NCBI GenBank assembly: GCA_964603025.1
Contig: CAZRTO010000001.1
Span: forward strand, 8,428-72,427
DNA: 64,000 nt
From: an uncultured bacterium
GTDB lineage: Bacteria > Margulisbacteria > WOR-1 > JAKLHX01
Direction: 5' to 3'
The notes below the pieces were generated by a model that was not told where the DNA came from, searched no databases, and was given only the letters and a program-made list of their open reading frames with translations. The translations under genes were made by a program, and so were the position numbers. Of the stretch, positions 33,519 to 48,380 are shown one piece after another (position 1 is the first letter of the stretch; each line of letters starts with the position of its first letter).

Positions 33519-35567
33519 CTACACGGGTATTTTTGAAAGGTCCGCGTATTGTTCAAAAAGGTCCCTTATCTGCGACAGAAGCGCCAGCCTGTTCCTCTTT
33601 AGGCCTGGGTCTTCGTGCATGACAAGGACCTTCTCAAAAAATACAGCCAGCGGCCCGGCGATCGGCGCCAGCTCTTTGAGGGCGGCGGCGTGTTCAAGCG
33701 CATCGGCTTTTGACCGGAAAGCGTCCTTAACGGACAAATAAGAGGCGTACAGCTTTTTTTCTTCGTCTTCAACGAACATTGAAGGATCCGCAGGAGAAAG
33801 AGCTTCCCTGGGACAGATCCTCTTAACCCTGTCCGCGGATACGGCAACATCCCTGAGCCACCCCTGGGACAGCGCGTTCTTTATTTCAAAAGCCCTGCAA
33901 TATGAGTCGGTAAATATATCGGCGCTGGCGAGCACGGATTCGGCTATCTCCCGCCCGGAGCCGTCGTTCTCGAGCACCGCCCTGAACCTCTGAAGGATGA
34001 AATCCGAGGCTTTTTCTCTGAGAGAAGGCTCTCCGCCGGACAGCTCGAAGGCCTTTTCCAGCACGCGTGAAAGAGAGAGCCTCATATTGCCGCCGAGCAT
34101 GATGGCCACGATCCCCTGGGCGCTCCTTCTAAGCGCGTATGGATCCTCGGACCCGGTGGGAACTATGCCGGCAGAAAAACAGGAAGCTATCGTATCAAAA
34201 CGGTCGCTGAGCCCCAGGATGGCCCCCTCAATGCTGACCGGAAGCTCATCCCCGGCGAATGCCGGAAGATACTGTTCCATCAATGCAAGGGCTACGGCGG
34301 GATCCTCTCCAGCGGCCAGAGCGTAGCAACGCCCCATGACTCCCGCGAGAGACGGAAATTCGCCGACAAGATGGGTCGCGAGGTCGAACTTGGCAAGCTC
34401 CGCGGCCTTTCGGGCCTTCATAGCAACGGATCCGTCAGCGCCAAGCTGATCCGCTATAAAACCGCACAGCTCCCTCATCCGGAGCGTCTTGTCCATCATT
34501 GTGCCGGCTTTTTCCAGGTATGTTATCTTTTTGGTCTTTTCAACATAATGGGATACAGGGTGCTTTAGGTCCTCATCATAGAAAAATTTCGCGTCAGCGA
34601 GCCTGGCGTTCACCACCTGCTCATACCCGGCCGATATTTCCCGGAAATCGCGGCCGTCGGCAATAATAAAGAATGTATTGCTGCCCTGAACGGGAAAACA
34701 TTTCTGCTGTTTTTTTATCACGGTCGATATGACCTCCTGAGGGATGGCTCCGCACAGCTCTCTTTTATACATGCCCTTGAGGACGCGCGGGTCCTCGACC
34801 AGGTCCGACACTTCGGCGATCAGCTCCGGATCGGGCGAGAGCCCTTTTTCCCCGTGATCCAGAGCGCCGGCTATATTTTTCTCTATCATTTCTTTTCTTG
34901 TCCGGTTCTCGGCTATCACACCCAGACCTTTTAGGAATTTTTTATACTCCTCGACCGTTTTGCCACGGAATTTTGCCTTTTTGCCTTCCGATAACGCCCT
35001 GTGGGACGGGACATCCTCTCCGGAAACGATCCCCGCGGCCTCGCATGGGAGCGGTTTACCCCCGAAAAAAGCCGAGATGTAATGTATCGGTCTTATGAAA
35101 GAATGATCCCCCTTGCCCCATTTCATCGATATGGGCAGATACGCCGACGAGAGAAGCTCCGCGGCCGCGGTCTTTAGGACCTCCTCCGACGGGAGTCCTT
35201 TTTCATCTTTTATGGCGAAAACATATTCTACATTGTTCACTTTTTCAAGTATAAGTCCGTCCAAAGAGACCCCTTTGGACGCCGCAAAAGCCTGGGCCGT
35301 TTTTGTGGGGGTGCCATCCTTGGAAAAAGCCTTTTCCTTTGACGGGCCCTTTATCTTAAGCTGAGCATCCGGCTGCATTGCCGGAACATCCGTCGCGGAG
35401 ATTATTATCCTGCGCATGGTGCCGAACACTTCTATACGCCCTGATGTAAGGCGCTTTTGTGCAAGCAGTTTTTCCGCTTTGGCGGCGAGATCCGAGAACA
35501 TGGGCTGCAGGAACCTGGCGGGAATCTCTTCGGTGCCTATTTCAATTATAAGGTCCTTAAGCTGCAT
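33519..35567 (-). CDS. glyS: glycine--tRNA ligase beta subunit
   Basis: 682 aa. [17 protein letters not shown]-terminus and GlyS family length. Confidence 0.9.
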
Positions 35568-35622
35568 CTTTTTGCTCCCAACAGAATATTATCACAATAC
35601 GGAATGGCTTTTTTCGCCCTTA

Positions 35623-36966
35623 TCAGTAAAATATGGACATAAGCTGGTCGAGCATATCCTCAAAGCCCACTTTTTCATAAGTGCCCTGCTTCAGGAAGTC
35701 GTTAACGGCGTCGATCTTTGCGATAGCTTCGTCTATTTTGGGGTTGCTTCCTTTTACATAAGCCCCTATGTTTATCAGGTCTTCCGCTTCGGAATATCTG
35801 GCCAGGACTTCCCTTAATTTGCCGGCCGCTTCTTTGTGTTCGTCAGAAACAAGGTTGGACATTATCCTGCTTACGCTCGGCAAGATGTCTATCGACGGGT
35901 AATGGTTCTTTGCGGCAAGGGCCCTGGAAAGTATGATGTGCCCGTCGAGTATGCTTCTAGACTGATCGGCGATCGGCTCGTTGAAATCGTCCCCTTCCAC
36001 TAGTATCGTATAAAAAGCCGTTATGGATCCTTTTTCGGAAGTACCGGACCGCTCCATCAGTTTTGGGAGCATCGCAAATACCGACGGGGTATATCCTCTG
36101 GTCGTCGGCGGCTCTCCCGAAGCAAGCCCCACGTCCCTTTGGGCGTAAGCGAACCTTGTCGTTGAATCCATCATAAAGATGACCTTCATGCCCTGGTCCC
36201 TGAAGTACTCCGCGATAGCCGTGGCTACAAAGGAAGCCTTTAACCTGATAAGAGGAGGCTGGTCCGAAGTGGCCACCACCACCACGGATTTTTGCAACCC
36301 TTCCTCTCCTAGAGACTCTTCGATAAAATCCCTCACTTCCCTGCCCCGCTCTCCGATGAGCGCGATAACGTTAACATCAGCCTCAGCGTTCCTTGCGATC
36401 ATGCCCATTAGGGTGGATTTGCCGACGCCTGAACCTGCGAATATCCCCATTCGCTGCCCGCGGCCTATGGTGAGCAATCCGTCTATGGCGCGGACGCCTA
36501 CCCTCAGGATCTCGGTTACTCTGGGACGCTTCACGGGATCCGGAGGGTCCGCATCCATGGGACGCTCTTCTTCCGACAAAAGAGGTCCCTTGTCATCTAT
36601 TGGTTGGCCAAGACCGTTAAGTACTCGCCCAAGCACCTGCTGGCCTACTTTTACTTTCAGGGGATGCCCGGCGGCAAGCACTTCCGAACCCGGGGATATT
36701 CCGGCGGTGGTACCCAAAGGCATGAGCAGAACGCGGCCTTCTTTAAAACCTACGACCTCCGCATAGGTCTGAGATTTTCCCTTTTCCACGCTGATAACAC
36801 AGAGGTCGCCGATGGACACTCCCTGCACCTGCGCCTCGAGTATAAGACCGACCACCTGAATGACCTTGCCTATGACCCTGACCGAATCAGCCTGTTCTAC
36901 CGCGCGGTGGTACTTCTCAAAGTCTATCGTAAATTCTTCGCTGGGAGCGGTTTCAGTCTGAATCAC
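35623..36966 (-). CDS. fliI: flagellum-specific ATP synthase FliI
   Basis: 447 aa. Walker A GSGVGKST on an F1/T3SS ATPase fold. Confidence 0.9.
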
Positions 36967-37720
36967 TGTCCTGCGCCTTCCCTATGGCCTGTTCGATAAG
37001 AGAAAGTTTTGTCGATATTCTGGCATCAACAAAGCCCAGATTTGTCTCTATTACGCATCCCCCCGGGTCCACCTGGCTGTCTTCCAATATGGAGAGGTTC
37101 TTTACTCCGTCAACTATCCCCGCGAGCCTGTCTTTGTAGTCCTTGATGGAATCAATGTCGTCTCGGTTGACCTTTACGATGACGGTCTCCCTGTCACTTA
37201 CCCTGTTTATAGCCTCGGCTACGATATTCATCACGACCTCTTTATTGGTGGACACTTCCGTCCTTATGATCTGTTCCGCTATTTTGAGGGCTAGTCTTGC
37301 TATCTCATTTTCGGAATCTTTTACGATCTTCTTCCTTTGCTTTATCGCGTCGTTCAGCGTCTCCATTGCCTGGTTTATTATGTCCGATATCTGCGACTGC
37401 CCTTCTCTCCTGCCTTCTTCCAGGCCTTCCTCCCTGGCAGATGCTCTGAGCGCTTCCGCTTCCGCCTGGGCGTTGGATATTATATCCTGAGACTCGGATT
37501 GCGCCTGTTCTATTATCTTTGAGGCTTTTTCGTACGAGGACTCGACCATATCTTCACCGCCGGACACGTCCTCCATGAGGCTGTCCTGATCGGGCTGAAC
37601 AATATCGTCTGCCGGCACGTCCTCCTGCTGTACATAGGAAACGGCCTGCGGCCTAGGAGAAGCATGCCCTACGTCAAGGTAGCCTTTCTCGATTATCTTG
37701 CTTTTCTTTATCAGTGCCAT
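36953..37720 (-). CDS. fliH: flagellar assembly protein FliH
   Basis: 255 aa. Charged coiled region [21 protein letters not shown] and a FliH C-terminal domain. Confidence 0.75.
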
Positions 37721-37722
37721 TA

Positions 37723-38265
37723 TCAGTTCAAAGCCATCCTTTCAAGCCTTCCGGAAAGTATCTTCACCACGGACTCTTTAACCTGCTCCCGGACCGGAGG
37801 GTTCTTGAGGGACTTGAGCATCCTCTCAAGATCGGACCTTCTTTCGGTCATAAAAGACAGGACTTCCTTGCGCTGCACTTCAGGCAACACGGAAAGCACG
37901 AAAGCTACCACCCAGACCCTTTCCGCCGAAAGGGCAGCGGCTATTTTTCTGGGCTGCGAATAAAAAAGTATGTCATACGGGCTCCTCGGTGATTCCTGGA
38001 CGGGAGCCTTATCCTGTGCGCCGGTCGGAGTATACGGTTTTTTCTCGGCGACCGGAGCGGCCTTTGCCGAAGGAAGCGTCATGAAGCCGGAAAATTCCTC
38101 AAGCACCGAGCTGATCAGCTCCGGGGACGGGGCCGGAAGATTGTTCATGCCTGATGTTATCGCATCGGACAGATCCTCCGGAAGGAACTTGAGTATCTCC
38201 GACGAGATCTCCGTTCCTAACAAAGAGAGAAGTATAGTGGCTTTTTGTCTTCCGGTGAGAACCAT
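37723..38265 (-). CDS. fliG: flagellar motor switch protein FliG, short form (N- and middle-domain only)
   Basis: 180 aa. FliG_N motif LTGRQKATILLSLLG. A FliG_M-like segment PRKIAAALSAERVWVVAFVLSVLPEVQRKEVLSFM. No C-terminal torque domain. The ORF is bounded tightly by the fliF stop and the fliH start. Confidence 0.65.
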   Translation of the reverse strand: MVLTGRQKATILLSLLGTEISSEILKFLPEDLSDAITSGMNNLPAPSPELISSVLEEFSGFMTLPSAKAAPVAEKKPYTPTGAQDKAPVQESPRSPYDILFYSQPRKIAAALSAERVWVVAFVLSVLPEVQRKEVLSFMTERRSDLERMLKSLKNPPVREQVKESVVKILSGRLERMALN

Positions 38266-39812
38266 TACTGCTTATTCTCCTCTTCTTCCGTCAGCCATTT
38301 TTCTATGAGTTTGGCCACCTTTTCCGGGGACCTGGCGACGGTGTTCCTTACCTGGTCAACCGCCGACGGTGCCGCAGCCCCTCTGGAAAGAGGGACCGTT
38401 TTTCCGGGAACAGGACGATTTGGTTTTTTCTTGCCTCTCCTGCGGATGATCCTTCCGAGTATCAACAGCAACAGGAATCCTCCGCCTCCCCACAACACTG
38501 CGGGATTGGCCTGCCGCAAGGCCGAAACTATCATAACGACCGGTCCTGCGGTATCCGACACAACAGCCTCCTCGGTAGATGAGGGTTCGGGGGTCGAGAT
38601 CGCTCCTCCTATGGTTTCCGGTCTCGCTGCCGTCGCATAATGGAACGGCACCTGCCTTATAACTATTCTGTCCCCCCTAAGGCTGTTATATGGGAGTGCC
38701 GAAGCCACCATATCCGACGTGGTCTTTTTTAGCTGTTCGGTCAGGTTAAAACGGTTGTCAACAAGGATTATCACCGTCATCTTGGTAATGCTCTCGTTGA
38801 AAAGCTCTATTTCGGTCTTCTTTGTATCGGCAGGCCGTTTCTTCCTTCCGGGCGCTTCATAGTCCTCGATATCCAGGCTCACCTTTACCAATATGCTGTT
38901 CGGCGGATAGAACCTGTTCACTATTGTCTGCGCCTTGGAAGAAAGAGTGTTCTCCATTTCTTCTTTTGCCTTCAAAGCCGCCAGGGCTTTTTCCTCCGGT
39001 GTTTTCGGGAGCATCTTTTCCGTGCTCACGGTCTCGACCTCTTTGGTCGGGAGCTGAGCTTCTGGCTGTTCCGGCATTTTTGCCGGCTTTATCACGTCGA
39101 ACCTGTCCTCTTTTTCCTGCGGAAATATGGGAGGAACTGAAGCGGCCTCCGGCGTAACGGCCTCCGGGCCTGTGAGTATGTTGCCGTAAATATCTACTAT
39201 GCTCACGTTCTCGGGCCTGAGGTTCTCGACGCTGTGGGACACAAGACGCACGATACCGTTCACCTGTTCCCTGGAAAGCCTTCTCCCGACCTTGAGCTGA
39301 AGGAGGACCGAAGCGGTTACTGGGACCTGGGTCACCTCAAAAAGAGTGGTCTGAGGCATCACTATCTGAACCCGGGCATCCTGCACAGCATCTATCTTCT
39401 TTATAGTTCGGGCCAGCTCTCCTGATATCGCCCTGACAAGCTGTATGCGTCTGTCAAAATCCGTCGTCCCTAACCGTGATTCATTGAAGATCTCCCAGCC
39501 TACAGAGCCCCCTACCGGAAGGTTTTTCTGCGCAAGCCCCAGCCTGGCTTCGTCAGCTTTGTCCTTGGGAACAGCGACCGATGTGCCGCCATCCTTTATC
39601 TGATACGGGATCTTTTGCTCTTTCAGCTGGGCCACAACATCCGCGGAATCTTTCAGTTCAAGATTGGAATATATCACCACATAACCGGAATAAGGGTCCC
39701 TGACGCCGCACGACCTTAAGAAGCCCAGCACAAATACAAGCGCGATAACGACGACAACGGACGCCATTATCAACAGCCGTCTGGCTTCAGATCCCGCTAC
39801 CGCTGATCCCAT
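38265..39812 (-). CDS. fliF: flagellar M-ring protein FliF
   Basis: 515 aa. N-terminal TM segment and YscJ/FliF periplasmic domains. Confidence 0.85.
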   Translation of the reverse strand: MGSAVAGSEARRLLIMASVVVVIALVFVLGFLRSCGVRDPYSGYVVIYSNLELKDSADVVAQLKEQKIPYQIKDGGTSVAVPKDKADEARLGLAQKNLPVGGSVGWEIFNESRLGTTDFDRRIQLVRAISGELARTIKKIDAVQDARVQIVMPQTTLFEVTQVPVTASVLLQLKVGRRLSREQVNGIVRLVSHSVENLRPENVSIVDIYGNILTGPEAVTPEAASVPPIFPQEKEDRFDVIKPAKMPEQPEAQLPTKEVETVSTEKMLPKTPEEKALAALKAKEEMENTLSSKAQTIVNRFYPPNSILVKVSLDIEDYEAPGRKKRPADTKKTEIELFNESITKMTVIILVDNRFNLTEQLKKTTSDMVASALPYNSLRGDRIVIRQVPFHYATAARPETIGGAISTPEPSSTEEAVVSDTAGPVVMIVSALRQANPAVLWGGGGFLLLLILGRIIRRRGKKKPNRPVPGKTVPLSRGAAAPSAVDQVRNTVARSPEKVAKLIEKWLTEEEENKQ

Positions 39813-39837: not shown

Positions 39838-40188
39838 TTATATCTGCATCTGGGTCATTTCTTTGAAAGTGTTCACCGCGGAGGTCACTACCGCCACGGC
39901 AAGCTGCACGGAAAGGTTCATTTTGGAGGTCGCGATCATCACATCGGAAAGCTCCGCCTTGCCTTCAACGAACTGCTGTATCAGCATATTTGTATCGTGT
40001 TCCATCCTGCTCACGCCTTCCAGTGAATCAACGGCCTTCTGGAGCACATCGTCAAACGTGCGTATCTGCCTGAACTCTTCTCCGGCAGGCGGCTGCTGGG
40101 GTACCGATACGGGAGCTGGCAGCGTTTCTCCTGGCCCGAGTATCTGGGCCAGCAGGTTCGGGTCTATCCGTCCTATGGATTCAACCAT
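39838..40188 (-). CDS. fliE: flagellar hook-basal body complex protein FliE
   Basis: 116 aa. FliE C-terminal motif ...SKMNLSVQLAVAVVTSAVNTFKEM. Confidence 0.75.
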   Translation of the reverse strand: MVESIGRIDPNLLAQILGPGETLPAPVSVPQQPPAGEEFRQIRTFDDVLQKAVDSLEGVSRMEHDTNMLIQQFVEGKAELSDVMIATSKMNLSVQLAVAVVTSAVNTFKEMTQMQI

Positions 40189-40212
40189 TGATCCCTCCTC
40201 ATCTTACCGCGC

Positions 40213-40656
40213 TTACTGTATCTGAAGCGTATCGTTCCCCATTTTTTTCGTAGCATTAAGAACGGCTATATTCGCTTCGTAAAGCTTGCTGGAATAGACC
40301 ATATCGGCCATCTCCGTCGGAAGCGAAACGTTAGGCAGCGTGACATAGCCGTTCTCATCCGCATCGGGATGTCCTGGATTGAATACCTTGGGCATAGGGG
40401 CGGAATAATCGTCCACAGCTCTTGCCGTCACGCCACCTGACACCGGTCTGTCGGCCCGTCCCTGAGCCCTGTCAAGCACAGAGGAAAAAGATTCCATCGG
40501 GGTCTCGGAATATACGACCGTTTTTTTCACGTACGGCGTCCCGTCCGAGGTCCTTGTTGTGTTTATATTGGCAATATTGCTGGCTATGACCTCCATATGC
40601 AGGCGCTGGGCCTGTATGGCCGATGCCGATATATCGAACGCATTACGTAGGCTCAC
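40213..40656 (-). CDS. flgC: flagellar basal-body rod protein FlgC
   Basis: 147 aa. N-terminal rod motif SNIANINTTRT and a conserved FlgC C-terminus. Confidence 0.9.
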   Translation of the reverse strand: MSLRNAFDISASAIQAQRLHMEVIASNIANINTTRTSDGTPYVKKTVVYSETPMESFSSVLDRAQGRADRPVSGGVTARAVDDYSAPMPKVFNPGHPDADENGYVTLPNVSLPTEMADMVYSSKLYEANIAVLNATKKMGNDTLQIQ

Positions 40657-40659
40657 CCG

Positions 40660-40962
40660 TTATTTCCTCCCCTGTGAGATAACGGTCCTTAATATCGCGA
40701 GTTTTGAGGACATGAGCTTTAGATATGCGGCATGCCGGCCGCTGTTCTTTGCCTGTTCCGCCATTTCTTCTTCAAGATTGACCCCCGGAGACTCCCTGCG
40801 TTCAACGGCCCTTCCCAGCACTTTATCGAACTTCTGGGGAACATAGCCGGGAGTGTTGGCGTTAGCGATATTATGCGCTATTATCTCGTGGGTCTTGGTG
40901 GCCGCCGTGATCCCTTTCTCAAGAGAAGTCATTGTAGGATCAAAAATGCCGTCAACCATCAA
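40660..40962 (-). CDS. flgB: flagellar basal-body rod protein FlgB
   Basis: 100 aa. HNIANANTPGY rod motif. Confidence 0.85.
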   Translation of the reverse strand: MMVDGIFDPTMTSLEKGITAATKTHEIIAHNIANANTPGYVPQKFDKVLGRAVERRESPGVNLEEEMAEQAKNSGRHAAYLKLMSSKLAILRTVISQGRK

Positions 40963-40978: not shown

Positions 40979-41737
40979 TTACTTCAGCTTTTCTTTGAGA
41001 TGCGTGATCGCCCTGGATATAAGACGGTTCACCTTGCTGCGGGAAAGCTTAAGCTCCGCGGCGATCTCTTTCTGGCTCACGCTTTTCCGGAAGAACATTT
41101 CAAGCGCGGTCCTCTCAAGCTTCGGCAGCTCTTTTATCTCTCTGTTGAGCCTTTCCTGCAGTTCCGAAGCTTCGGAATCCTCTACCTGGGTCCTTTCCCC
41201 GGATACCTGAACTTCAGTATTCTCTGTAAGCTGTTCCAGGGAGACAAGATACATCAGCGCAGAAGCCGATACTATCTTTTGTATCTTTGACACGGCGGAC
41301 TTGAATTCGCCTTCGCTGAGCTTTTTCTTTTCCAGCATCTTAGCGTCCTTTTTGGACATTCCGGACTGCTCTTTGCCTTTCAGGACCGCGGAATAACCTT
41401 TTTTAGCCAGATCGCGCACCATGACCTGTATCCTGTAAGGCACCGGATTATAGCATTTGAGTCCGTCGAGTATCTCTCCTCTTACGCGGTACGAGGCATA
41501 AGTCTCGAATTTTACGCCCCTTTTAGGATCAAAATTATCCCAGGCTTTCATCAGCCCCACCATGCCGTCGCTCACGAGATCGTTATAATCTATGTTGGGC
41601 GGAAGTCCCTTGCCGGAGATCATGGAAGCTATGGAATGCACCAGGGGCATATATGCCTCCATTGCCACAGGAGGCCTGAAAGTCGTCTGCTGGGCCGCCG
41701 TTTTTTTGTTCTTTTTGGCTATCTTCATCGCTGACAT
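40979..41737 (-). CDS. fliA: RNA polymerase sigma factor FliA (sigma-28)
   Basis: 252 aa. Sigma-70 regions 2, 3 and 4 (YASYRVRGEILD...; region 4 HTH SQKEIAAELKLSRSKV). Embedded in flagellar genes. Confidence 0.8.
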   Translation of the reverse strand: MSAMKIAKKNKKTAAQQTTFRPPVAMEAYMPLVHSIASMISGKGLPPNIDYNDLVSDGMVGLMKAWDNFDPKRGVKFETYASYRVRGEILDGLKCYNPVPYRIQVMVRDLAKKGYSAVLKGKEQSGMSKKDAKMLEKKKLSEGEFKSAVSKIQKIVSASALMYLVSLEQLTENTEVQVSGERTQVEDSEASELQERLNREIKELPKLERTALEMFFRKSVSQKEIAAELKLSRSKVNRLISRAITHLKEKLK

Positions 41738-41738: not shown

Positions 41739-42065
41739 TCACATCCCTCTCAAATCACCGCCGGACATCTTAGCTTCCTTGGCTATACTCTCCTCCACAA
41801 GCCGGTTAAGGCCAAAAACATCGCTCTCCGCAAGCTGTCTGATCATTTCATCAGTGAGCATGTCCGAGTATAAACTGTTGTTAATATTATCATCTAACAT
41901 GTCGTTCTTCCACTGGTTCTTGAAAATTTCCTTTAACATCCCCTGCAAAAATACCGATGAGAACGCAGCGGCATATTCTTTGCTTGTTGCGTTCTGTCCT
42001 CCCGGCGCAGACATGCCGACTGGAGCATCCGGCACAGCCCCTATGGGAGGCAAATACATAGACAT
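41739..42065 (-). CDS. flgJ: rod-binding protein (FlgJ N-terminal-domain-like, no muramidase domain)
   Basis: 108 aa. FLQGMLKEIF...LYSDMLTDEMIRQLAESDVFGL matches the Rod-binding profile. Confidence 0.55.
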   Translation of the reverse strand: MSMYLPPIGAVPDAPVGMSAPGGQNATSKEYAAAFSSVFLQGMLKEIFKNQWKNDMLDDNINNSLYSDMLTDEMIRQLAESDVFGLNRLVEESIAKEAKMSGGDLRGM

Positions 42066-42066: not shown

Positions 42067-43254
42067 CTACATCACCTCTATTTCGGTATTCATGGCTCCC
42101 GAAGCTTTTATTGCCTGCAGTATGGCTATAAGCTCCCTAGAAGAAGCTCCTATTGCGTTCAGGCTCCTTATAAGATCCCCGAGCGTGGCTCCGCCGCCGA
42201 CTTCGCTCAAAGGCCTGCTCTGTTCCGTAACTGAAAGGCTCTGCGCCGGAGAAAGTCCGGAGAGCATGTCGCGGCTGGACGGTTCGGCCACCGTAACCGT
42301 AATATGCCCGAAGGTAACCGCGACAGGAGCGATCCTGACATTTTCACCTATAACAACAGTACCGGTCCTCTCGTTTATAACGACCTTTGCCCTGACATCA
42401 GGGACTACCGTAAGGTTCTCAACCCTTGAGATAAGATCAACTATATCCTCCCCTATGGCGGCCGCTACTACTATGGTCGACGGATCTTCAGCCTTCGCAT
42501 CCATGCCGGCCTGGGCTATCGTATAGGCAACCCTCGAAGCGGTAGTAAAATCGGGTTCGTTCAATACCACTGAAAAGAAAGATGATGTGCCCACTCCGGA
42601 CAAAAAAGCCTCTTCGGTAAGAGCCACCGAGGAGACCGACTCAAAATTAGCGTATACTTCCCTTTCGACTATGGCCCCGTTGGGTATCTTGCCCGAGGTC
42701 GATACTTCCGAACCGACGGAAGGAGCCCCGGGAACATGGACGCTCCCGACCGATAAAGGCCCCTGAGCCACGGCATAAACATTATTGTCCGCTCCCTGCA
42801 AAGGTGTCAGGAGAAGCGTACCGCCCCTCAAGCTTGTCGCATCCCCCAGCGATGACACTGTCACATCGATCCTCTTCCCGGGCTTAGAAAAAGCCGGCAG
42901 ATTCGCGGTGACCATCACGGCGGCAACATTTTTGGATTTGAACTCCTGGGCTCTCGGGACGTTGGCCATGTTATAGATCGGATTTGTCCCTGAGGTATTG
43001 AGCGGTGACGGTCCCTGAAGCCCCATGCGGGTCAAGAGGTTCGTAAGGGCCTGCTTCGTGAATTCGGTCTGCTGGCTGTCGCCCGTGTGCCTTAGGCCTA
43101 CCACAAGACCGAATCCCATCAGCTGGTTGTCCCTGACCTCGCGTATTGAAGCTATGTCTTTTATCCTGACGGCAGGCGACTGAGCATGGATCTGGCCTGC
43201 ACAGATCAAGACCGCCGAACAAACAAAAAGAAAAAAAGCCAGCTTATTTTTCAA
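42067..43254 (-). CDS. flgI: flagellar P-ring protein FlgI
   Basis: 395 aa. Signal peptide and the FlgI family N-terminus (VRIKDIASIREVRDNQLMGFGLVVGL). Confidence 0.9.
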   Translation of the reverse strand: MKNKLAFFLFVCSAVLICAGQIHAQSPAVRIKDIASIREVRDNQLMGFGLVVGLRHTGDSQQTEFTKQALTNLLTRMGLQGPSPLNTSGTNPIYNMANVPRAQEFKSKNVAAVMVTANLPAFSKPGKRIDVTVSSLGDATSLRGGTLLLTPLQGADNNVYAVAQGPLSVGSVHVPGAPSVGSEVSTSGKIPNGAIVEREVYANFESVSSVALTEEAFLSGVGTSSFFSVVLNEPDFTTASRVAYTIAQAGMDAKAEDPSTIVVAAAIGEDIVDLISRVENLTVVPDVRAKVVINERTGTVVIGENVRIAPVAVTFGHITVTVAEPSSRDMLSGLSPAQSLSVTEQSRPLSEVGGGATLGDLIRSLNAIGASSRELIAILQAIKASGAMNTEIEVM

Positions 43255-43267
43255 TCTCGCCTTCTCC

Positions 43268-43855
43268 TTAAAATATGAAGTTCAGCACTCTCATCAGGAT
43301 GCCGGGGGATGATGATTCTCCGACTGCCCCCGTACCCTTTACGGACACTTCCGCATTTGCGACCTGATAAGAATAGACCGTGTTCCATGAAGTTATGTCC
43401 TTCGGACGGATCATGCCTGATATCCTGATCTCCTGTTTTTCCTCGTTCACCGACACTTTGTGCATTCCGTCTATCACGAGATTTCCGTCCGGCATCACTT
43501 CCCTGACAGTTACGGCAACCGTGGCCAGCACGTTGCTGGAACGCGTGGTCGAACCGGAACCTTTGAAAGCCTGGCTCCTCGATCCCTGCAAGCCTGCGGA
43601 AGGAGCGATCGTTCCCTGAAGTTTTTGTATGGTATGCGAAAAACTGGCTCCAAGGCTGTCCTGGTTCTGCGTGTCGGTGCCCGCCCTCTGTACGGCCGAT
43701 GTGCTCTCAACTATCAGGACCATTATTACATCCCCTGCTTTGTAAGGCTTTTGTACCACGAAGGGGGAAGAGCTGTTCTCTATCCAGAGAGAGGATGAAA
43801 AAACAGCGGAGTTCATGAGCATCAGCATGCAAAACAACGCGGCAAATATCCTCAT
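43268..43855 (-). CDS. flgH: flagellar L-ring lipoprotein FlgH
   Basis: 195 aa. Signal peptide and FlgH-like core (SLW..., GDVIMVLIVE...). Confidence 0.8.
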   Translation of the reverse strand: MRIFAALFCMLMLMNSAVFSSSLWIENSSSPFVVQKPYKAGDVIMVLIVESTSAVQRAGTDTQNQDSLGASFSHTIQKLQGTIAPSAGLQGSRSQAFKGSGSTTRSSNVLATVAVTVREVMPDGNLVIDGMHKVSVNEEKQEIRISGMIRPKDITSWNTVYSYQVANAEVSVKGTGAVGESSSPGILMRVLNFIF

Positions 43856-43860
43856 ATCAT

Positions 43861-44223
43861 CTACTCCAACACTTTTTTTATTTTGTTGTTCTCGTCCACA
43901 AGGACCACTTTTGTCTTGAACTTCACGGCGCTTTCTTCGTCCACCAATCCGTAGGATATTACTATTATCAGGTCGTTAACAACTCCCATTCGCGCGGCCC
44001 CCCCGTTCAGGCAAACGGTCCCTGATCCTTTTGGGCCTTCTATCAAATAGGTTTCAAATCGCTGCCCGTTGGTCACGTTAACGACCTGGACCTTTTCTCC
44101 TGACAGCATCCCGGAAGCGTCCAAAAGCTCCCGGTCAACGGTAAGAGAGCCTTCGTAATCTATACAGGCCTCGGTAACCCTTAGCCTGTGTATCTTTGAA
44201 AGGCATAACTGCCTGAGTATCAT
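43861..44223 (-). CDS. panD: aspartate 1-decarboxylase (pyruvoyl-dependent)
   Basis: 120 aa. KIHRLRVTEACIDYEGSLTVD (Gly-Ser self-cleavage site) and ...GAARMGVVNDLIIVISY. Confidence 0.85.
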   Translation of the reverse strand: MILRQLCLSKIHRLRVTEACIDYEGSLTVDRELLDASGMLSGEKVQVVNVTNGQRFETYLIEGPKGSGTVCLNGGAARMGVVNDLIIVISYGLVDEESAVKFKTKVVLVDENNKIKKVLE

Positions 44224-44945
44224 ATTGCCTCCACCTCCCCGGTCCCTACAACCCTTCCGTCAACTATCTTTTTCGATCCAGGGTTCCTAACCCTTATATT
44301 AGCATTGATATGGCCGTCTTCAAGCGCCACGCCCCTTACCTTGACCAGAATGCCGTTCGAGCTCTTAAAAAGCGTGACCGTATCTCCTTTTTTTACCGCC
44401 GGCACTTCTTTGGGCATCCAGTCCAAAACAAGTCCTCCCCTGGATATCATGGTGGAAGCCTGCCTTCCCAGTGCTTTTTTAGCGTCGACGAGATAGTTGG
44501 ACGGAAGATGCGTCACGTCCCTTTCGGAATATCCGATGTTCTTAGAGGTAAAAATATCTCCCTGGCGTATCCTTGAAGTAGCGACCACAACATTCCTGAA
44601 TATCCTGATAGAAGTCCTTAGATTGACCCTTTCCTTTAACTGCGCGCCGGAATACAGTTCTATCGGGACGACAACATCACCGGAAAGCGCCAGGTTCTCC
44701 GGATAAGCTATCCTCATCTCCATACCGGCAGATGCGGGAATCCTGCCGGTCTCACGGAAAGAGATCTCTACCCTGGCCTTATCAAGAAAAGGCGACCGTC
44801 TCACGATCTCGCTCTTCACCAGGGTTTCAAACCTTGCAAGATCCTCGCTGGAGGAATATACCGTACCGGAAAAAACCGCAGAAAAGACCAGACAAGCCGC
44901 CAACAATGCGGCGAGAAAACCTCCCTTAACGGAAATAGCCTTCAA
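44220..44945 (-). CDS. flgA: flagellar basal-body P-ring formation chaperone FlgA
   Basis: 241 aa. Signal peptide and a SAF/FlgA C-terminal domain. Confidence 0.75.
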   Translation of the reverse strand: MKAISVKGGFLAALLAACLVFSAVFSGTVYSSSEDLARFETLVKSEIVRRSPFLDKARVEISFRETGRIPASAGMEMRIAYPENLALSGDVVVPIELYSGAQLKERVNLRTSIRIFRNVVVATSRIRQGDIFTSKNIGYSERDVTHLPSNYLVDAKKALGRQASTMISRGGLVLDWMPKEVPAVKKGDTVTLFKSSNGILVKVRGVALEDGHINANIRVRNPGSKKIVDGRVVGTGEVEAI

Positions 44946-44949: not shown

Positions 44950-45756
44950 TCATCCTTTCATCTGTATTGCCGAAGTGACCATCTGTTCATAGCTCTGTAT
45001 AGCCTTGGTGACCGTATCAAAAACCCGCTGTATCATGACCATGCGCATCATTTCCGATATCACGTCAACATTGGCCTGCTCAAGGGCTGACTGCTGTATG
45101 GCACCAAAACCGGTTTGTCCGGGCGTCCCGAAAATAGGGTCTCCCGAGGCTTCGGTCTGTGCGTACAGGTTCTGTCCAAGGCTCTTCAGTCCGGACGGAT
45201 TTGAGAACTTGGCAAGATTGATCTGTCCTATCTCGTTCAGCTCCAAAGAGTCGTCGATTGAAACAAGGACAGTCCCGTCGAAACGGATAAGGACGCTGGT
45301 GGTGCCGTCGGGAAATATTATCGGCGGGTCGAGCAGCCTTCCGTTAGGGTCTACCATGTTGCCTGCGTTGTCCGAATGAAAGTTCCCGGCCCTGCTGTAG
45401 GCTGTAGTTCCGTCCGGCATCCTTAGCTGGAAGAAACCCTCTCCCTGGATAGCCACATCGAGAGGGTTGTTGGTTATTTCGATCGTTCCCTGTGAAAAAT
45501 CCTTCGGAGTGCCGACCACCCTGACACCCAGCCCGGACTCGACCCTGTTCTTTGCATTACCTATGTCTTCCCGGCGGTCAAAAGCATCGTCGAGATAATT
45601 GGCAAAGTCCTTGTTCACATAGAACATGCTCTCTTTTTCAACTCTGCCCTTTTTAAAAGCTACCGTTTTGGAGTTGGCCAGGTTATTGGTTATATTGGAC
45701 ATCTCCTCCTCAAAGGTGTTGAGCCCGGTGGCCGCAATATACAAAGGTTGGAACAT
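44950..45756 (-). CDS. flgG: flagellar basal-body rod protein FlgG (distal rod)
   Basis: 268 aa. Rod N- and C-terminal motifs (MSNITNNLANSKT, ...MIQRVFDTVTKAIQS). Confidence 0.85.
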   Translation of the reverse strand: MFQPLYIAATGLNTFEEEMSNITNNLANSKTVAFKKGRVEKESMFYVNKDFANYLDDAFDRREDIGNAKNRVESGLGVRVVGTPKDFSQGTIEITNNPLDVAIQGEGFFQLRMPDGTTAYSRAGNFHSDNAGNMVDPNGRLLDPPIIFPDGTTSVLIRFDGTVLVSIDDSLELNEIGQINLAKFSNPSGLKSLGQNLYAQTEASGDPIFGTPGQTGFGAIQQSALEQANVDVISEMMRMVMIQRVFDTVTKAIQSYEQMVTSAIQMKG

Positions 45757-45777
45757 GGTCGGGCACCTCCTATGCTT

Positions 45778-46533
45778 TTATTGGACGGGCCTTCCTATCT
45801 CTATTATCTTCTGCATATCAGCTTCTCTGTTCTTTATTATCTTGGCCGCCAGTTCGTAAGACCTCTGGGTTGTAATGAGATTCGTCATTTCGTTTATTAT
45901 GCTCACGTTGGACGATTCGATAAAACCTTGAGCGATGGTCGGGCTCTCATCTTCTTCATACACGACCCCTTGCTGAGGCGACTTAAAAAAAGAATTGTTC
46001 ACCGAAACAAGAGAGGACGGATCCCTGAATTTCACCACCCTTATCTTGTCCACTTCAACATCATCTACCAGCAGCGCCCCATTCCTTGAAACTTCAAACT
46101 TTGAGCCTGGAGCTATCGATATCGGACCGGACCGTCCCATTACGGGAAAATTGCCCGAGGAAGTCAAAAGCCTGCCGTCTTCGTTGATGTAAAAACGCCC
46201 GTCCCTGGTAAAGAACTCTCCTTCCCGGGAAAGCACGACAAAATATCCGTCACCCCCTATCGCCATGTCGGTGTTCGATCCGGTCTTGAACATGGCCCCG
46301 TACCTCATATCGTTGTATGAACCGGTTACTTTAGGGATCGCCATAAATGAGGTCCCCCTGTTCTCCTCGGACCTTGTGGCGTTCTCGAGAGCAAGAGGAA
46401 ATGAGGTCGCAACGACATCGGACTTTCTGTAACCCGGCGTCTGGGCGTTGGCTACGTTATTCATCAGCATCTTGGCCTTCATTTCGGAAGTCTCAAGAGC
46501 GTTTTTGCCTATCTCAAGTATCCTGTCGGCCAT
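45778..46533 (-). CDS. flgF: flagellar basal-body rod protein FlgF (proximal rod)
   Basis: 251 aa. NNVANAQTPGYRK rod motif and a conserved C-terminus. Confidence 0.8.
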   Translation of the reverse strand: MADRILEIGKNALETSEMKAKMLMNNVANAQTPGYRKSDVVATSFPLALENATRSEENRGTSFMAIPKVTGSYNDMRYGAMFKTGSNTDMAIGGDGYFVVLSREGEFFTRDGRFYINEDGRLLTSSGNFPVMGRSGPISIAPGSKFEVSRNGALLVDDVEVDKIRVVKFRDPSSLVSVNNSFFKSPQQGVVYEEDESPTIAQGFIESSNVSIINEMTNLITTQRSYELAAKIIKNREADMQKIIEIGRPVQ

Positions 46534-46630: not shown

Positions 46631-46987
46631 TCACTGTTTCAGTTTACTGTACAGTTTTTTCTTCTTTTCGGCCATTTTGTCCAATTGATAGACGTAAAAA
46701 AGAACTTCGGCCACGAGAGTATATAGTTCAGCGGGTATCTGAGCATCAAGCTCAAGCTTCGAAAGCAGCTCTGCCAGCTTTGGATTTTCGTAAAGGGGGA
46801 TCTCATTCTCGTCGGCGATACGGAGTATTTCGTCAGCCACCACCCCCCTGCCGGATGCCAGCACAAGCGGCGCCGCATCCTTTTCCACATCATACCTGAG
46901 CGCGATGGCGGTGCGTTTTTTCTCGCCGGATTCCTCCAGCTGGTCCTTTTTCTTTATGTTCTTCAGGGCTTCTTTGATCTCTGCCAT
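46631..46987 (-). CDS. FlhB C-terminal-domain-like protein (YlqH-type)
   Basis: 118 aa. Matches the C-terminal cytoplasmic domain of FlhB/YscU (…PLVLASGRGVVADEILRIADENEIPLYENPKLAELL…). Confidence 0.7.
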   Translation of the reverse strand: MAEIKEALKNIKKKDQLEESGEKKRTAIALRYDVEKDAAPLVLASGRGVVADEILRIADENEIPLYENPKLAELLSKLELDAQIPAELYTLVAEVLFYVYQLDKMAEKKKKLYSKLKQ

Positions 46988-46988: not shown

Positions 46989-48332
46989 TTATATCGTGCT
47001 ATCTATCCTGAAAAGCCTTTCCAAACCGAGCAAAGGTATCAGGAACGGTTTAATGCTGCACATCGTCTTGTTGACCCGCGACTGGCACTCTTCGACATTA
47101 TACCCTTTTTCGGAGAGCTTCCTTTTCAGGTTCACGCTTTCCGAATCGCACAGTCTTTTTGTGTCCTCTTCTTCCGTGTTAAAGAGCATCTTGACATTAT
47201 TATCCCTTACGATCACCGATACCACCATTTTCCCCAGCGCCTCGGTCTCAAGCCCTATGGCAATGTGCGTATCATTCATGTCGACCGCGTTCTTTCTTTT
47301 TGGGTCCTGTTTTACGATTATCTCCACGCTTGAAGGCGGGGTCAGCATGTTGTTAGGTATCTGATAATAAAGGTAGTCGTCCTGCTGCCCCATGTAGCTC
47401 TTGGATGCCCGCTGGCTTAGTATGGCCTGCGAAGTAAGGTTCTCCAAAAGGTCTCCGAGTTTTTTGGATGCGGCGATCACGGCTGACCTGGCGGCTTCGT
47501 TCTCAGGCGTGGCCGCGGCTTCTTTGGACAGGGCCCGGTTCTGTATACCGTCCAGAAGAGAATTGAGGGCCCTGATGTCGTTCATCAGATCGTCACGCCC
47601 TATCGCCGAGCTCCCCTCCGTGCCGAACTTATATTTTTTCGGCAGGTCCTCTATTATCGCCGAGAATTGCCCTATCAGCGATGTTATCTGAGATAAAAGT
47701 GCTGGAGGAAATGATGAAGCGTTCATCTGTATGGAGGCCGAGAGCTGGGCAAGAGAACTGTTGAGAGCCGAAAGCTGGCCGGTCACGTTCGGGGTCTCTG
47801 AAAGCTGGTTGGACAGCATTTTTACGGCCTCGGACGAATTCGTTATGCCTTTTGTGAGCAGGACCATGGCGGCCTCCTGGGTACTGGAGGATTTATTGGT
47901 CCCCTCCGTCATGGCCATGGCTTTTATAAAGTTCTCGCGGCTCAGCTCCACGCCGAACCTGAGCATAAGCGATGCCAGCTTAACATTGGCTTCTGTCGAA
48001 GGGATATTTATGGAAGTAAGGTGTGATGTAACATCGTTTACGGTAAGTTCCCTGACCGCCTGAGAAGCCGTTGTCGTTGAAGCAGAAGCGGTGGCCGTGG
48101 CTGCAGATGTCGAGGACTGCGCCGCAACTGACTGAGAAGCCTGAGTGGACGATGCCGCCTGGCTAGAGGACTGCGAAGATGCCGATTGGCTGGCAGACTG
48201 GGAAGAAGACGAGGTGGTTTGCTGAGTCTGGGTCTGTGTTTCCTGTTGCGTCTGGCTCTGGGATTTTGTCTGTGGCCATATCACCGGCTTGCCCGGATGT
48301 ATGCCGCCCGCGGAAGTTTGAAGATCGGCCAT
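46989..48332 (-). CDS. fliK: flagellar hook-length control protein FliK (Gln/Ser/Thr-rich)
   Basis: 447 aa. C-terminal Flg_hook-like segment (IAIGLETEALGKMVVSVIVRDNNVKMLFNTEEEDTKRLCDSESVNLKRKLSEKGYNV) and a low-complexity Q/S/T-rich N-terminal half. Confidence 0.65.
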   Translation of the reverse strand: MADLQTSAGGIHPGKPVIWPQTKSQSQTQQETQTQTQQTTSSSSQSASQSASSQSSSQAASSTQASQSVAAQSSTSAATATASASTTTASQAVRELTVNDVTSHLTSINIPSTEANVKLASLMLRFGVELSRENFIKAMAMTEGTNKSSSTQEAAMVLLTKGITNSSEAVKMLSNQLSETPNVTGQLSALNSSLAQLSASIQMNASSFPPALLSQITSLIGQFSAIIEDLPKKYKFGTEGSSAIGRDDLMNDIRALNSLLDGIQNRALSKEAAATPENEAARSAVIAASKKLGDLLENLTSQAILSQRASKSYMGQQDDYLYYQIPNNMLTPPSSVEIIVKQDPKRKNAVDMNDTHIAIGLETEALGKMVVSVIVRDNNVKMLFNTEEEDTKRLCDSESVNLKRKLSEKGYNVEECQSRVNKTMCSIKPFLIPLLGLERLFRIDSTI

Positions 48333-48350: not shown

Positions 48351-48380
48351 ATGATATATTCACGGGCGGAAAAAGTCAAC
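48351..48380 (-). promoter_or_regulatory. putative sigma-70-type promoter for fliK (TTGACT-16/18-TATATC/TATCAT) containing TTTTTCCGC spacer motif
   Basis: Read on the minus strand as ttgactttttccgcccgtgaatatatcat, with RBS GGAGG before the ATG. Confidence 0.4.

What the first reader, a model, noticed from the sequence alone, without database searches (positions are those of the whole stretch)
37723..38265. FliG is only 180 aa: N and middle domains present, the C-terminal torque-generating domain absent
The ORF between fliF and fliH carries the FliG_N signature LTGRQKATILLSLLG and a FliG_M-like segment. It ends after 180 residues, where canonical FliG runs to about 330. Its flanks leave no room for the missing part. 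The fliF stop overlaps the fliG ATG by 1 nt, and the fliH ATG follows 2 nt after the fliG stop. FliH is full length and no alternative minus-strand frame of 60 aa or more exists in that stretch. FliG_C carries the charged ridge that contacts MotA. Three explanations fit: the C-domain is a separate gene elsewhere, the motor uses a different stator-rotor interface, or the basal body is a non-rotating secretion/adhesion structure. Any of these would be unusual.
Basis: partly seen in the sequence, partly recalled or inferred. Interest (0 to 1): 0.62.

Follow-up and report, generated by a model that had tools for sequence, protein, structure and literature searches.

The report
Phylum-wide FliG lacking its torque domain
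The flagellar rotor protein FliG in this genome, and across the Margulisbacteria/Saganbacteria phylum, is a conserved half-size version that keeps the parts that anchor it to the motor ring but lacks the part that normally receives the turning force, so these machines either do not rotate or get their torque some other way.

Summary
ORF 37723-38265(-) encodes a 180-aa FliG wedged between fliF (1-nt overlap) and fliH (2-nt gap).

Profile and fold comparisons show three parts:
- the first half of FliG_N, which is the FliF-binding ARM module;
- a free-evolving linker;
- a complete FliG_M, ending at helix MC.

There is no FliG_C.

It is not an artefact. The identical protein lies on 7 independent contigs, and dN/dS is about 0.1. 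Short FliGs of 149-206 aa sit at the same operon position in every one of the more than 35 lineages examined: Saganbacteria/WOR-1, Riflemargulisbacteria, Termititenax and others. About 60 short-form clusters at 50% identity were found.

No FliG_C, FliM, FliN or MotAB is encoded in about 830 kb of flanking DNA.

A published KEGG inventory (PMC6349859) reports near-complete flagellar and chemotaxis gene sets in Riflemargulisbacteria. In Saganbacteria it reports only the export gate, rod, rings, ATPase and FliN. That paper flagged FliG only as "check_length".

Best reading: a ring-bound adaptor that cannot itself take torque. In the window's Saganbacteria-side lineage the machine is probably a non-propulsive basal body or exporter.

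I could not test genome-wide whether a C-domain is encoded elsewhere. This is a new variant of a known kind.

The parts
37723..38265 (-). fliG' : 180-aa short FliG (stop codon 37723-37725)
38077..38265 (-). N-module, residues 1-63: four-helix ARM-like module, equal to the first half of FliG_N; predicted FliF C-terminus binding site
37981..38076 (-). Linker, residues 64-95: disordered, variable in length and sequence; replaces the second half of FliG_N
   Evidence: AF2 pLDDT 56-64. No conserved columns. pN 0.41-0.49, near neutral.
37726..37980 (-). M-module, residues 96-180: six-helix FliG_M (ARM_M plus a helix at the position of helix MC). The invariant 'ALSAER' lies where canonical FliG has EHPQ
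38265..39812 (-). fliF (515 aa), MS-ring protein; its stop overlaps the fliG' ATG by 1 nt
   Evidence: Pfam YscJ_FliF 3.7e-61.
38268..38342 (-). FliF C-terminal 25 residues '...SPEKVAKLIEKWLTEEEENKQ': the conserved FliG_N-binding helix
   Evidence: Conserved as NPE[KR][IV]A.LL[KR].WL[ST]E in all Margulis/Sagan loci, and similar to E. coli 'DPRVVALVIRQWINNDHE'.
36953..37720 (-). fliH (255 aa); ATG lies 2 nt after the fliG' stop
   Evidence: Pfam FliH 4.9e-22.
35623..36966 (-). fliI, export ATPase; last gene of the cluster in this clade (no fliJ follows; glyS is next)
   Evidence: Pfam ATP-synt_ab 1.8e-90 and T3SS_ATPase_C. The FliJ profile finds nothing in the window.
39838..40962 (-). fliE (39838-40188), flgC (40213-40656), flgB (40660-40962): proximal rod
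   Evidence: Pfam.
40979..41737 (-). FliA/WhiG-type sigma factor inside the operon
   Evidence: NCBIfam TIGR02479 at 2.5e-41; best family but below the cut-off.
41739..42065 (-). FlgJ-N-like rod-binding protein (108 aa, no muramidase domain)
   Evidence: Pfam Rod-binding 0.0027. NCBIfam FlgJ 2.9e-6.
42067..44945 (-). flgI (42067-43254), flgH (43268-43855), panD (43861-44223), flgA (44220-44945): P and L rings and their chaperone, with an embedded aspartate decarboxylase gene
   Evidence: Pfam.
44950..46533 (-). flgG (44950-45756) and a flgF-like distal/proximal rod gene (45778-46533)
   Evidence: Pfam. phmmer against E. coli FlgE/F/G.
46631..46987 (-). flhX-like: stand-alone FlhB C-terminal subdomain (118 aa)
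   Evidence: Pfam Bac_export_2 6.4e-21, model positions 261-335 of 335. NCBIfam flhB_rel.
46989..48332 (-). fliK-like hook-length control protein (447 aa), first gene of the cluster. Sigma-70-like promoters lie upstream at 48351-48432
   Evidence: Pfam Flg_hook 3.8e-8. Promoter scan.

Best explanation
This is the genuine, functional FliG of the organism. It is a two-module protein kept by purifying selection throughout the Margulisbacteria/Saganbacteria phylum.

Shown:
- It has the first, FliF-binding half of FliG_N, a free linker, and a complete FliG_M that stops at helix MC.
- The stator-facing C-terminal domain is absent from the protein, from the operon and from all flanking DNA examined.
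- The FliF C-terminal helix that FliG_N normally clamps is conserved.

Inferred mechanism:
- The N-module holds the protein on the cytoplasmic face of the MS ring, one copy per FliF.
- The M-module presents the surface that in canonical motors binds FliM. Here it probably binds a FliM- or FliN/FliY-type partner, which in turn docks the FliH-FliI export ATPase.
- The protein therefore acts as an assembly and export adaptor. It cannot itself receive torque from MotA.

For the window's own Saganbacteria-side lineage, a published gene inventory finds the export gate, rod, L/P rings, ATPase and FliN. It finds no FliM, hook-filament junction, filament cap, FliL or FlhF/G. I infer that the apparatus there is a non-propulsive, flagellum-derived basal body or type III exporter.
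For: Real and constrained:
- The identical protein is on 7 contigs.
- dN/dS is about 0.08-0.11. The N-module is almost frozen and the linker is near neutral.
- There are 22 relatives of 170-185 aa.
- 22 GTDB species carry 149-188 aa forms at the same position, whereas Planctomycetota hits are 330-355 aa with EHPQ.
- About 62 of the best 150 hits in a 1.84-billion-protein library are short forms.
- The architecture is also present in Riflemargulisbacteria, Termititenax persephonae and other lineages.

Architecture:
- hhalign and the PDB profile search.
- AF2 mean pLDDT 87.
- All 68 family members match Pfam FliG_M and 67 match FliG_N. The 6 weak FliG_C matches fall on the same residues as stronger FliG_N or FliG_M matches and add no extra domain.

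Partner sites:
- The FliF C-terminal helix is conserved.
- The Glu of EHPQ is nearly invariant (at least 90% of 68 sequences). Most short forms keep E[RK]PQ.

Nothing nearby supplies the missing parts:
- No FliG_C, FliM, FliN, MotA or MotB was found in about 830 kb of Margulis/Sagan DNA including the window.
- Pfam scans of about 55 window ORFs found none either.

Reduced set in Saganbacteria (PMC6349859 Supplementary Data 2):
- FlhA/B, FliPQR, FliH/I/J, FliN, FliF, FliE, FlgB/C/G/H/I/A are present in most of 26 genomes.
- FliM, FlgK, FlgL, FliD, FlgM, FlgN, FliL, FlhF, FlhG and FliW are absent in all 26.

Further erosion in some lineages:
- No fliJ in the window clade.
- No fliH or fliI next to fliG' in L045.

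From my own knowledge of Salmonella/E. coli genetics: the N and M parts of FliG suffice for flagellar assembly, while C-terminal lesions give paralysed motors.
Against: - The same short FliG occurs in Riflemargulisbacteria. Their published inventory is a near-complete flagellar and chemotaxis set: FliM, FliN, FliL, FlgE, FlgK/L, FliD, FlgM/N, FliW, FlhF/G and Che proteins. The authors call them motile by polar flagella.
- One such assembly, GCA_003242895.1, carries a cheW-cheA-cheY-cheX-cheX operon. It also has a CheY-like regulator right after fliJ.
- So lack of FliG_C does not by itself show a non-rotating machine.
- The operon keeps a FliA-type sigma factor, FliK and FlhX. These are typical of hook and filament assembly control.
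- KEGG HMM absences can be false negatives. FliG and FliK are scored absent in all Saganbacteria although divergent forms exist.
- MotA and MotB are not in the published tables.
- I could not place the window's organism among the published genomes, and I could not search any complete genome.
Confidence: 0.5

Rival explanations
1. The flagellum rotates normally, and the torque-receiving domain is supplied in trans. The supplier would be a separately encoded FliG_C or FliG_MC protein, or a second full-length FliG, located elsewhere in the genome. It would stack on the M-module of the short FliG and on FliM. Under this reading the short FliG is the anchoring half of a split or duplicated rotor protein.
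For: - Riflemargulisbacteria carry the same short FliG but have near-complete flagellar and chemotaxis gene sets. They also have a che operon in the same assembly.
- The published table scores K02410 FliG as 'reliable' in three Riflemargulis genomes and 'check_length' in two. That could reflect a second hit.
- A stand-alone FliG_MC paralogue exists in nature: Planctomycetota locus L033 has fliG followed by a 252-aa protein that matches my FliG_C profile at 6.9e-50.
- The short protein ends at helix MC, the natural hinge between M and C.
- From my own knowledge: ARM_C-ARM_M stacking in canonical rings occurs between neighbouring subunits, so a non-covalent C-module is structurally plausible.
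Against: - No such gene lies next to fliG' in any of the more than 35 lineages examined, although split genes usually stay adjacent.
- There is no FliG_C signal in about 830 kb of related DNA.
- None of the canonical FliGs closest to the short-family profile carried a Margulis/Sagan name.
- Saganbacteria lack FliM, junction and cap genes in the published inventory.
- The EHPQ motif is degraded in the window clade and in Riflemargulisbacteria.
Confidence: 0.3
2. The flagellum rotates, but no FliG_C exists anywhere in the genome. Torque would enter the rotor through a different interface. That interface could be a lineage-specific protein, or the stator could act directly on the M-module or on FliM/FliN.
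For: - The combination (full flagellar and che gene sets in Riflemargulisbacteria) with the universal absence of FliG_C at the fliG locus.
- Riflemargulisbacteria conserve a CheY-like regulator plus a 174-180 aa HEAT-repeat protein directly after fliJ in two genera.
- The M-module has a conserved charged fifth helix.
Against: - From established knowledge: every characterised flagellar motor uses the FliG_C charged ridge to contact MotA, so the prior is low.
- The HEAT protein shows no significant similarity to FliG (hhalign probability 1%). Its best NCBIfam match is CpcF/NblB-type HEAT-repeat families, below their cut-offs. It is absent from the window clade.
- No conserved charged surface is shared by all short-FliG subfamilies.
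Confidence: 0.1
3. The short ORF is an assembly or frameshift artefact, or a decaying pseudogene remnant of a normal fliG.
For: At first sight only: it is half the usual length and misses the NCBIfam full-length cut-off.
Against: - The identical protein is found in 7 independent assemblies.
- Start and stop are tightly coupled to fliF and fliH.
- The architecture is conserved from 99% down to about 22% identity across four classes.
- dN/dS is about 0.1, with domain-specific constraint.
- The AF2 fold is confident.
Confidence: 0.01

Closest known systems
Canonical FliG (Salmonella/E. coli 331 aa; T. maritima, A. aeolicus, H. pylori structures 8umd, 3hjl, 5tdy, 4fq0)
   Same: - Same gene position between fliF and fliH.
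- Homologous N-terminal FliF-binding ARM module and FliG_M fold.
- The FliF C-terminal partner helix is conserved.
   Different: - It lacks the second half of FliG_N and the whole FliG_C (ARM_C plus the six-helix torque domain).
- EHPQ is changed to E[RK]PQ in most relatives and to AERVW in the window.
- It scores far below the full-length equivalog cut-off (41.8 against 226.7 bits).
Engineered or spontaneous FliG C-terminal lesions in Salmonella/E. coli (Mot- 'paralysed' mutants; recalled from the literature, not checked here)
   Same: N and M are retained while C is lost or damaged. In the model organisms this permits assembly but abolishes torque.
   Different: Here the truncation is natural, ancient, phylum-wide and under purifying selection. 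It is not a laboratory allele.
Injectisome adaptor SctK, which links the membrane ring to the SctQ pods of a non-rotating type III secretion system
   Same: The proposed role is the same: a small helical adaptor between the inner-membrane ring and a FliM/FliN-like cytoplasmic platform in a machine that need not rotate.
Buchnera-type non-motile flagellar basal bodies used as exporters (recalled from the literature)
   Same: A reduced flagellar gene set without a propulsive filament. Basal body and export apparatus are retained.
   Different: As far as I recall, Buchnera keeps a full-length FliG. Here the torque domain itself is gone, and the state is shared by free-living lineages.
FliG paralogues (spirochaete FliG1/FliG2; the 252-aa FliG_MC gene next to fliG in Planctomycetota locus L033)
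   Same: They show that partial or duplicated FliG proteins can coexist in one flagellar system.
   Different: Those paralogues keep FliG_C and accompany a full-length FliG. The protein here lacks C, and no full-length copy was seen.
MgtE N-terminal domain (PF03448)
   Different: There are no CBS or transporter domains. FliG matches are far better, and the context is flagellar.

Membership tests
FliG (flagellar rotor/switch protein) | N-terminal domain that binds the FliF C-terminus (PF14842) | tested here: met
FliG (flagellar rotor/switch protein) | Middle domain ARM_M (PF14841) | tested here: met
FliG (flagellar rotor/switch protein) | EHPQR FliM-binding motif in the middle domain | tested here: inconclusive
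   The window has AERVW at that position. The Glu is nearly invariant (at least 90% of 68 sequences). 23 or more short representatives have E[RK]PQ. Riflemargulisbacteria have NEK[PF]R[IV]Q. No FliM sequence was available for testing.
FliG (flagellar rotor/switch protein) | C-terminal domain with the charged torque helix that contacts MotA (PF01706) | tested here: not met
   No Pfam FliG_C match. hhalign probability to that region is 2%. My own FliG_C profile gives only E 2.9. The weak FliG_C hits in 6 of 68 relatives fall on the same residues as stronger FliG_N or FliG_M matches and add no extra domain. The protein ends at helix MC, with fliH 2 nt downstream.
FliG (flagellar rotor/switch protein) | Encoded between fliF and fliH in the basal-body operon | tested here: met
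   The same position is seen in every related locus, except that fliH is not adjacent in L045.
FliG (flagellar rotor/switch protein) | Full-length equivalog score (TIGR00207 cut-off 226.7 bits) | tested here: not met
   41.8 bits.
Complete motile flagellar system | Stator MotA/MotB, C-ring FliM/FliN, hook, junction, filament and cap genes in the same genome | not testable with these tools
   None of these genes is in the 64-kb window or in any +/-10 kb flank. Whole genomes could not be searched. A published inventory gives a near-complete set for Riflemargulisbacteria and a reduced set for Saganbacteria; MotAB are not tabulated.
Injectisome SctK adaptor | SctK fold or sequence family | tested here: not met

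The most novel reading that the evidence does not exclude
No FliG_C domain exists anywhere in these genomes. At least the Riflemargulisbacteria nevertheless swim with rotating flagella; they carry the same short FliG together with near-complete flagellar and chemotaxis gene sets. The rotor-stator interface, thought universal in bacterial flagella, would then have been replaced in a whole phylum by an unknown component.
Probability: 0.12. Interest if true: 0.95.

Novelty: new variant of a known kind. Interest (0 to 1): 0.66.

Why it matters
The contact between the FliG C-terminal domain and MotA is regarded as the universal site of torque generation in bacterial flagella. Here a whole phylum, sister to the Cyanobacteria/Melainabacteria group, has a FliG without that domain. 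The phylum includes lineages published as "motile by polar flagella".

Each possible resolution is informative:
- A split rotor protein would show that torque can pass through a non-covalent M-C junction.
- A replaced interface would overturn a textbook generalisation.
- A non-rotating basal body would be a second route from flagellum to secretion or structural machine, independent of the injectisome. The short FliG would play the adaptor role that SctK plays there.

There is also a practical lesson. KEGG or Pfam presence/absence calls such as "FliG present, check_length" have been read as evidence of motility in these MAGs. That reading may be wrong.

Tried and rejected
1. Apparent FliF-FliG fusion in L023 (643-aa open frame). 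Rejected: a run of N lies just upstream of the fliG' ATG.

2. Extra FlgD_ig-like ORF in L013 as a lead to a hook locus. It is an orphan with no relatives in 5.8 billion proteins. That search was wasted.

3. HEAT-repeat protein after the CheY-like gene in Riflemargulisbacteria as a disguised FliG_C. hhalign probability is 1%, and its best NCBIfam match is CpcF-like HEAT repeats, below the cut-off.

4. Pfam FliG_C hits in 6 of 68 family members. They fall on the same residues as stronger FliG_N or FliG_M matches and add no extra domain.

6. Looking for a second flagellar locus, by several routes:
- +/-10 kb flanks in more than 35 lineages;
- extending the window's left end (housekeeping genes only);
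- the right end (protein not on record);
- a CheY-seeded homologue search, which found a che operon in the same Riflemargulis assembly but no motor genes.

7. Canonical FliGs nearest to the short-family profile. None carried a Margulis/Sagan name. P0150 looks like a fragment of a normal FliG.

8. A sigma-28 consensus promoter search in the window gave 0 matches. This is uninformative.

9. Literature searches for a described short FliG found nothing. The Termititenax genome paper is not held.

Full report
**What is in the sequence**

The minus-strand ORF 37723..38265 encodes 180 residues starting MVLTGRQKATILLSLLG. The fliF ORF (38265..39812) ends in TAA, and the last A of that stop is the A of the fliG ATG (junction shown). 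The fliH ATG (37720) lies two bases after the fliG stop. No other minus-strand ORF of 40 aa or more lies in the interval.

Pfam finds FliG_N (1e-11; residues 3-59, only model positions 2-58 of 104) and FliG_M (1.8e-9). It finds no FliG_C. FliF, FliH and FliI are normal. The NCBIfam full-length FliG model scores 41.8 bits against a cut-off of 226.7.

**Anatomy**

A 22-sequence family alignment shows three regions:
- a conserved N-terminal block of about 63 residues;
- a 30-residue stretch with no conserved columns;
- a conserved C-terminal block of about 85 residues containing the invariant string ALSAER.

A profile of the family aligns colinearly with Salmonella FliG residues 3-154, with T. 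maritima FliG_N from the FliF_C:FliG_N complex, and with H. pylori FliG_M (query residues 99-179).

hhalign of 41 short sequences against E. coli plus six Planctomycetota FliGs gives one significant alignment. Residues 1-175 align to canonical 1-184 of 331 (probability 98.5%, E 1.5e-15). The FliG_C region aligns at only 2% probability.

With a 68-sequence alignment, AlphaFold gives mean pLDDT 87:
- four helices at residues 5-62;
- a low-confidence linker at 63-95;
- six helices at 96-179, with pLDDT 91-98.

I attribute the FliG_C hit to the shared ARM-like fold. Sequence, colinearity and the motif position all assign module 2 to FliG_M.

The protein is therefore the first half of FliG_N, a linker that replaces the second half of FliG_N, and a complete FliG_M that ends at helix MC. 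The invariant ALSAER sits exactly where canonical FliG has the FliM-binding EHPQ.

**Not an artefact, not a pseudogene**

The identical 180-aa protein is called on seven contigs from different ENA and Logan assemblies. Against relatives at about 77% identity, synonymous sites are saturated while pN differs sharply by region:
- 0.01-0.04 in the N-module;
- 0.12-0.16 in the M-module;
- 0.41-0.49 in the linker.

Overall dN/dS is about 0.08-0.11.

**Distribution**

- A homologue search found 22 proteins, all 170-185 aa. The named ones come from Margulisiibacteriota and Saganbacteria.
- A scan of one genome per GTDB species found 22 Margulisiibacteriota/Saganbacteria (WOR-1) genomes. Every one has a short FliG of 149-188 aa. 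The only other hits were six Planctomycetota FliGs of 330-355 aa with EHPQ.
- A search of 1.84 billion representatives gave 817 hits. About 62 of the best 150 are 140-200 aa, mostly end-to-end matches. Canonical proteins of about 330 aa start only at E of about 1e-12.
- Named members include Ca. Margulisbacteria GWD2_39_127 (Riflemargulisbacteria) and Ca. Termititenax persephonae GBR75573.1, which is annotated simply as FliG and is 168 aa.
- All 68 members of a broad alignment match Pfam FliG_M, and 67 match FliG_N. Six weak FliG_C matches fall on the same residues as stronger FliG_N or FliG_M matches and add no extra domain.
- At the EHPQ position most short forms have E[RK]PQ. The window clade has AERxx. 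Riflemargulisbacteria have NEK[PF]R[IV]Q. The Glu is nearly invariant.

An apparent FliF-FliG fusion in L023 turned out to be a run of N.

**Context**

In the window the gene lies in a single minus-strand operon:

fliK - flhX (stand-alone FlhB C-subdomain) - flgF - flgG - flgA - panD - flgH - flgI - flgJ-N-like - fliA-type sigma - flgB - flgC - fliE - fliF - fliG' - fliH - fliI

Ribosomal protein L25 and DnaE lie upstream, and glyS lies downstream. The same cluster recurs in every related locus, with small variations:
- fliJ follows fliI except in the window clade;
- fliH and fliI are not adjacent in L045;
- fliK and flhX are not upstream in Termititenax.

The FliF C-terminus (...NPE[KR][IV]A.LL[KR].WL[ST]E) is conserved and resembles the E. 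coli FliG-binding helix.

E. coli flagellar and chemotaxis proteins and a FliG_C profile were searched against six-frame ORFs of the window and all Margulis/Sagan loci, about 830 kb with some redundancy. Only the cluster genes were found. There was no FliM, FliN, FliPQR, FlhA, MotA, MotB, FlgD, FlgK, FlgL or FliG_C. Pfam scans of about 55 window ORFs agree.

**The rest of the genome**

I could not search whole genomes, so this section rests on the literature plus one lucky jump.

Supplementary Data 2 and 4 of Matheus Carnevali et al. 2019 (PMC6349859) tabulate KEGG-HMM calls for 46 genomes.

The five Riflemargulisbacteria have:
- FlhA/B, FliOPQR, FliH/I/J, FliM, FliN, FliF, rod and ring proteins;
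- FlgE, FliK, FlgD, FlgK, FlgL, FliD, FlgM, FlgN, FliA, FlhF, FlhG, FliL, FliW;
- CheC/D/R/B/W/Y and MCPs.

Their FliG is scored 'check_length' in two genomes and 'reliable' in three.

The 26 Saganbacteria have FlhA/B, FliP/Q/R, FliH/I/J, FliN, FliF, FliE, FlgB/C/G/H/I/A and FliA. FliM, FlgK, FlgL, FliD, FlgM, FlgN, FliL, FliW, FlhF and FlhG are '#N/A' in all 26. FliG and FliK are also '#N/A', which I know to be false negatives because divergent forms exist in those genomes' cluster. The absences must therefore be read with care.

MotA and MotB are not tabulated. [quoted passage not shown] They do not comment on FliG length.

Independently, a search seeded with the CheY-like regulator that follows fliJ in Riflemargulisbacteria led to a second contig of the same assembly, GCA_003242895.1. 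That contig carries cheW - Hpt/P2 protein - cheA - cheY - cheX - cheX.

Other papers list flagellins, and FlgV within FlhF/FlhG superoperons, in 'Margulisbacteria' without naming lineages.

**Interpretation**

Firmly shown:
- This is a conserved, functional FliG derivative that keeps a FliF-binding module and the FliG_M module.
- It has no stator-facing domain.
- That state is ancestral to the phylum.

Inferred:
- It sits on the MS ring through the conserved FliF C-terminal helix.
- It presents the FliG_M face to a FliM- or FliN/FliY-type partner, and so supports the cytoplasmic export platform.
- From my own knowledge of Salmonella/E. coli genetics, this matches the finding that N and M suffice for assembly, whereas C is specifically the torque domain.

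What the machine does as a whole is unresolved. By FliG' similarity the window lies on the Saganbacteria side: 53% identity to a named Saganbacteria protein, against about 30% or less for Riflemargulis and Termititenax members in the broad alignment.

For that side, several things point to a non-propulsive basal body or type III exporter:
- the published reduced gene set;
- the loss of fliJ next to fliI;
- a degraded EHPQ motif.

I give this reading 0.5.

Against generalising it: the same short FliG serves Riflemargulisbacteria, which appear fully equipped for flagellar chemotaxis.
- For them a C-domain supplied in trans is the conservative answer (0.3 overall). The 252-aa FliG_MC paralogue next to fliG in Planctomycetota L033 shows that such proteins exist.
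- However, no such gene is ever adjacent in Margulis/Sagan loci.
- A truly different rotor-stator interface is the radical alternative (0.1).

**Novelty**

I found no paper that describes or discusses a FliG lacking FliG_C in these or any other lineages. The nearest trace is the unexplained 'check_length' flag in PMC6349859 and the plain 'FliG' annotation of the 168-aa Termititenax protein. The Termititenax genome paper could not be read.

I file the finding as a new variant of a known kind. It is a FliG by descent, position and two of its three domains. It fails the defining torque-domain feature.

Noticed in passing
window 43861-44223 (-); also L005, L011, L012, L025, L042, L051 and the ERZ27296333 contig: An aspartate 1-decarboxylase gene (panD, Pfam 1e-44) sits inside the flagellar operon between flgA and flgH. 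This odd insertion is conserved across the window clade, some Saganbacteria and Riflemargulisbacteria. It is absent from the divergent Saganbacteria clade.
   Followed up: partly
window 46631-46987 (-): A stand-alone 118-aa FlhB C-terminal subdomain lies immediately downstream of fliK in nearly all related loci. It has no NPTH cleavage site. It matches TIGR00789 flhB_rel and resembles H. pylori FlhX and B. subtilis YlqH.
   Followed up: partly
window 35567-35623; compare L025 12610-13089: fliJ is missing after fliI in the window clade, where glyS follows directly. A well-conserved FliJ (KFKY..VLKVREIKEKKEQEKFAEK) follows fliI in the divergent Saganbacteria clade, Riflemargulisbacteria and Termititenax. 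The FliJ profile finds nothing anywhere in the 64-kb window.
   Followed up: yes
L042 13631-14536; L051 10001-10905: In two Riflemargulisbacteria genera, fliJ is followed by a CheY-like response regulator and then a 174-180 aa HEAT-repeat protein. The regulator is 118 aa, matches E. coli CheY at 1.5e-17, and is 76% identical to Chloroflexota CheY. This is a conserved pair of unknown role at the end of the basal-body operon.
   Followed up: partly
L050 6224-11441 (GCA_003242895.1, QKMY01000024.1): A chemotaxis operon lies in the same Riflemargulis assembly that carries the short FliG: cheW - 394-aa Hpt/P2 protein - cheA - cheY - cheX - cheX. Its CheY is 85% identical to the regulator at the end of the flagellar cluster.
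   Followed up: partly
L033 10001-11824 (Planctomycetota MAG VRUG01000007.1): A normal 336-aa fliG is followed directly by a 252-aa FliG paralogue. The paralogue matches the FliG_C profile at 6.9e-50 and E. coli FliG at 1.3e-14, so it looks like an M+C-only FliG. fliH and fliI come after it.
   Followed up: no
L045 10001-11665 (GCA_038916385.1): In this divergent lineage the cluster stops at fliG' (184 aa, no Pfam hit on record). Next come an unknown 348-aa gene on the opposite strand and folA/thyA. fliH and fliI are not adjacent.
   Followed up: no
window 41739-42065 (-): The FlgJ-like gene is only the N-terminal rod-binding part (108 aa) with no muramidase domain. The motif FLAIFYKELLK is conserved in relatives.
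   Followed up: partly
L053 13399-14972 (Ca. Termititenax persephonae): Downstream of fliJ lie two unannotated secreted proteins: a 229-aa protein with a signal peptide that looks like a beta-barrel, and a 287-aa lipoprotein. fliK, flhX and flgF are not upstream of the cluster in this genome.
   Followed up: no
window 13834-14898 (+) and 56372-57946 (+): Two long ORFs (354 and 524 aa) have no Pfam match at E of 0.001 or better. The second overlaps the 5' end of the carB-like gene on the other strand and may be spurious.
   Followed up: no
window 38900-39200 (fliF residues about 215-330): FliF carries a long Pro/Glu/Lys-rich, low-complexity insertion between its YscJ_FliF domain and the weakly matching C-terminal ring domain. 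Total FliF length varies from 481 to 576 aa among relatives.
   Followed up: no
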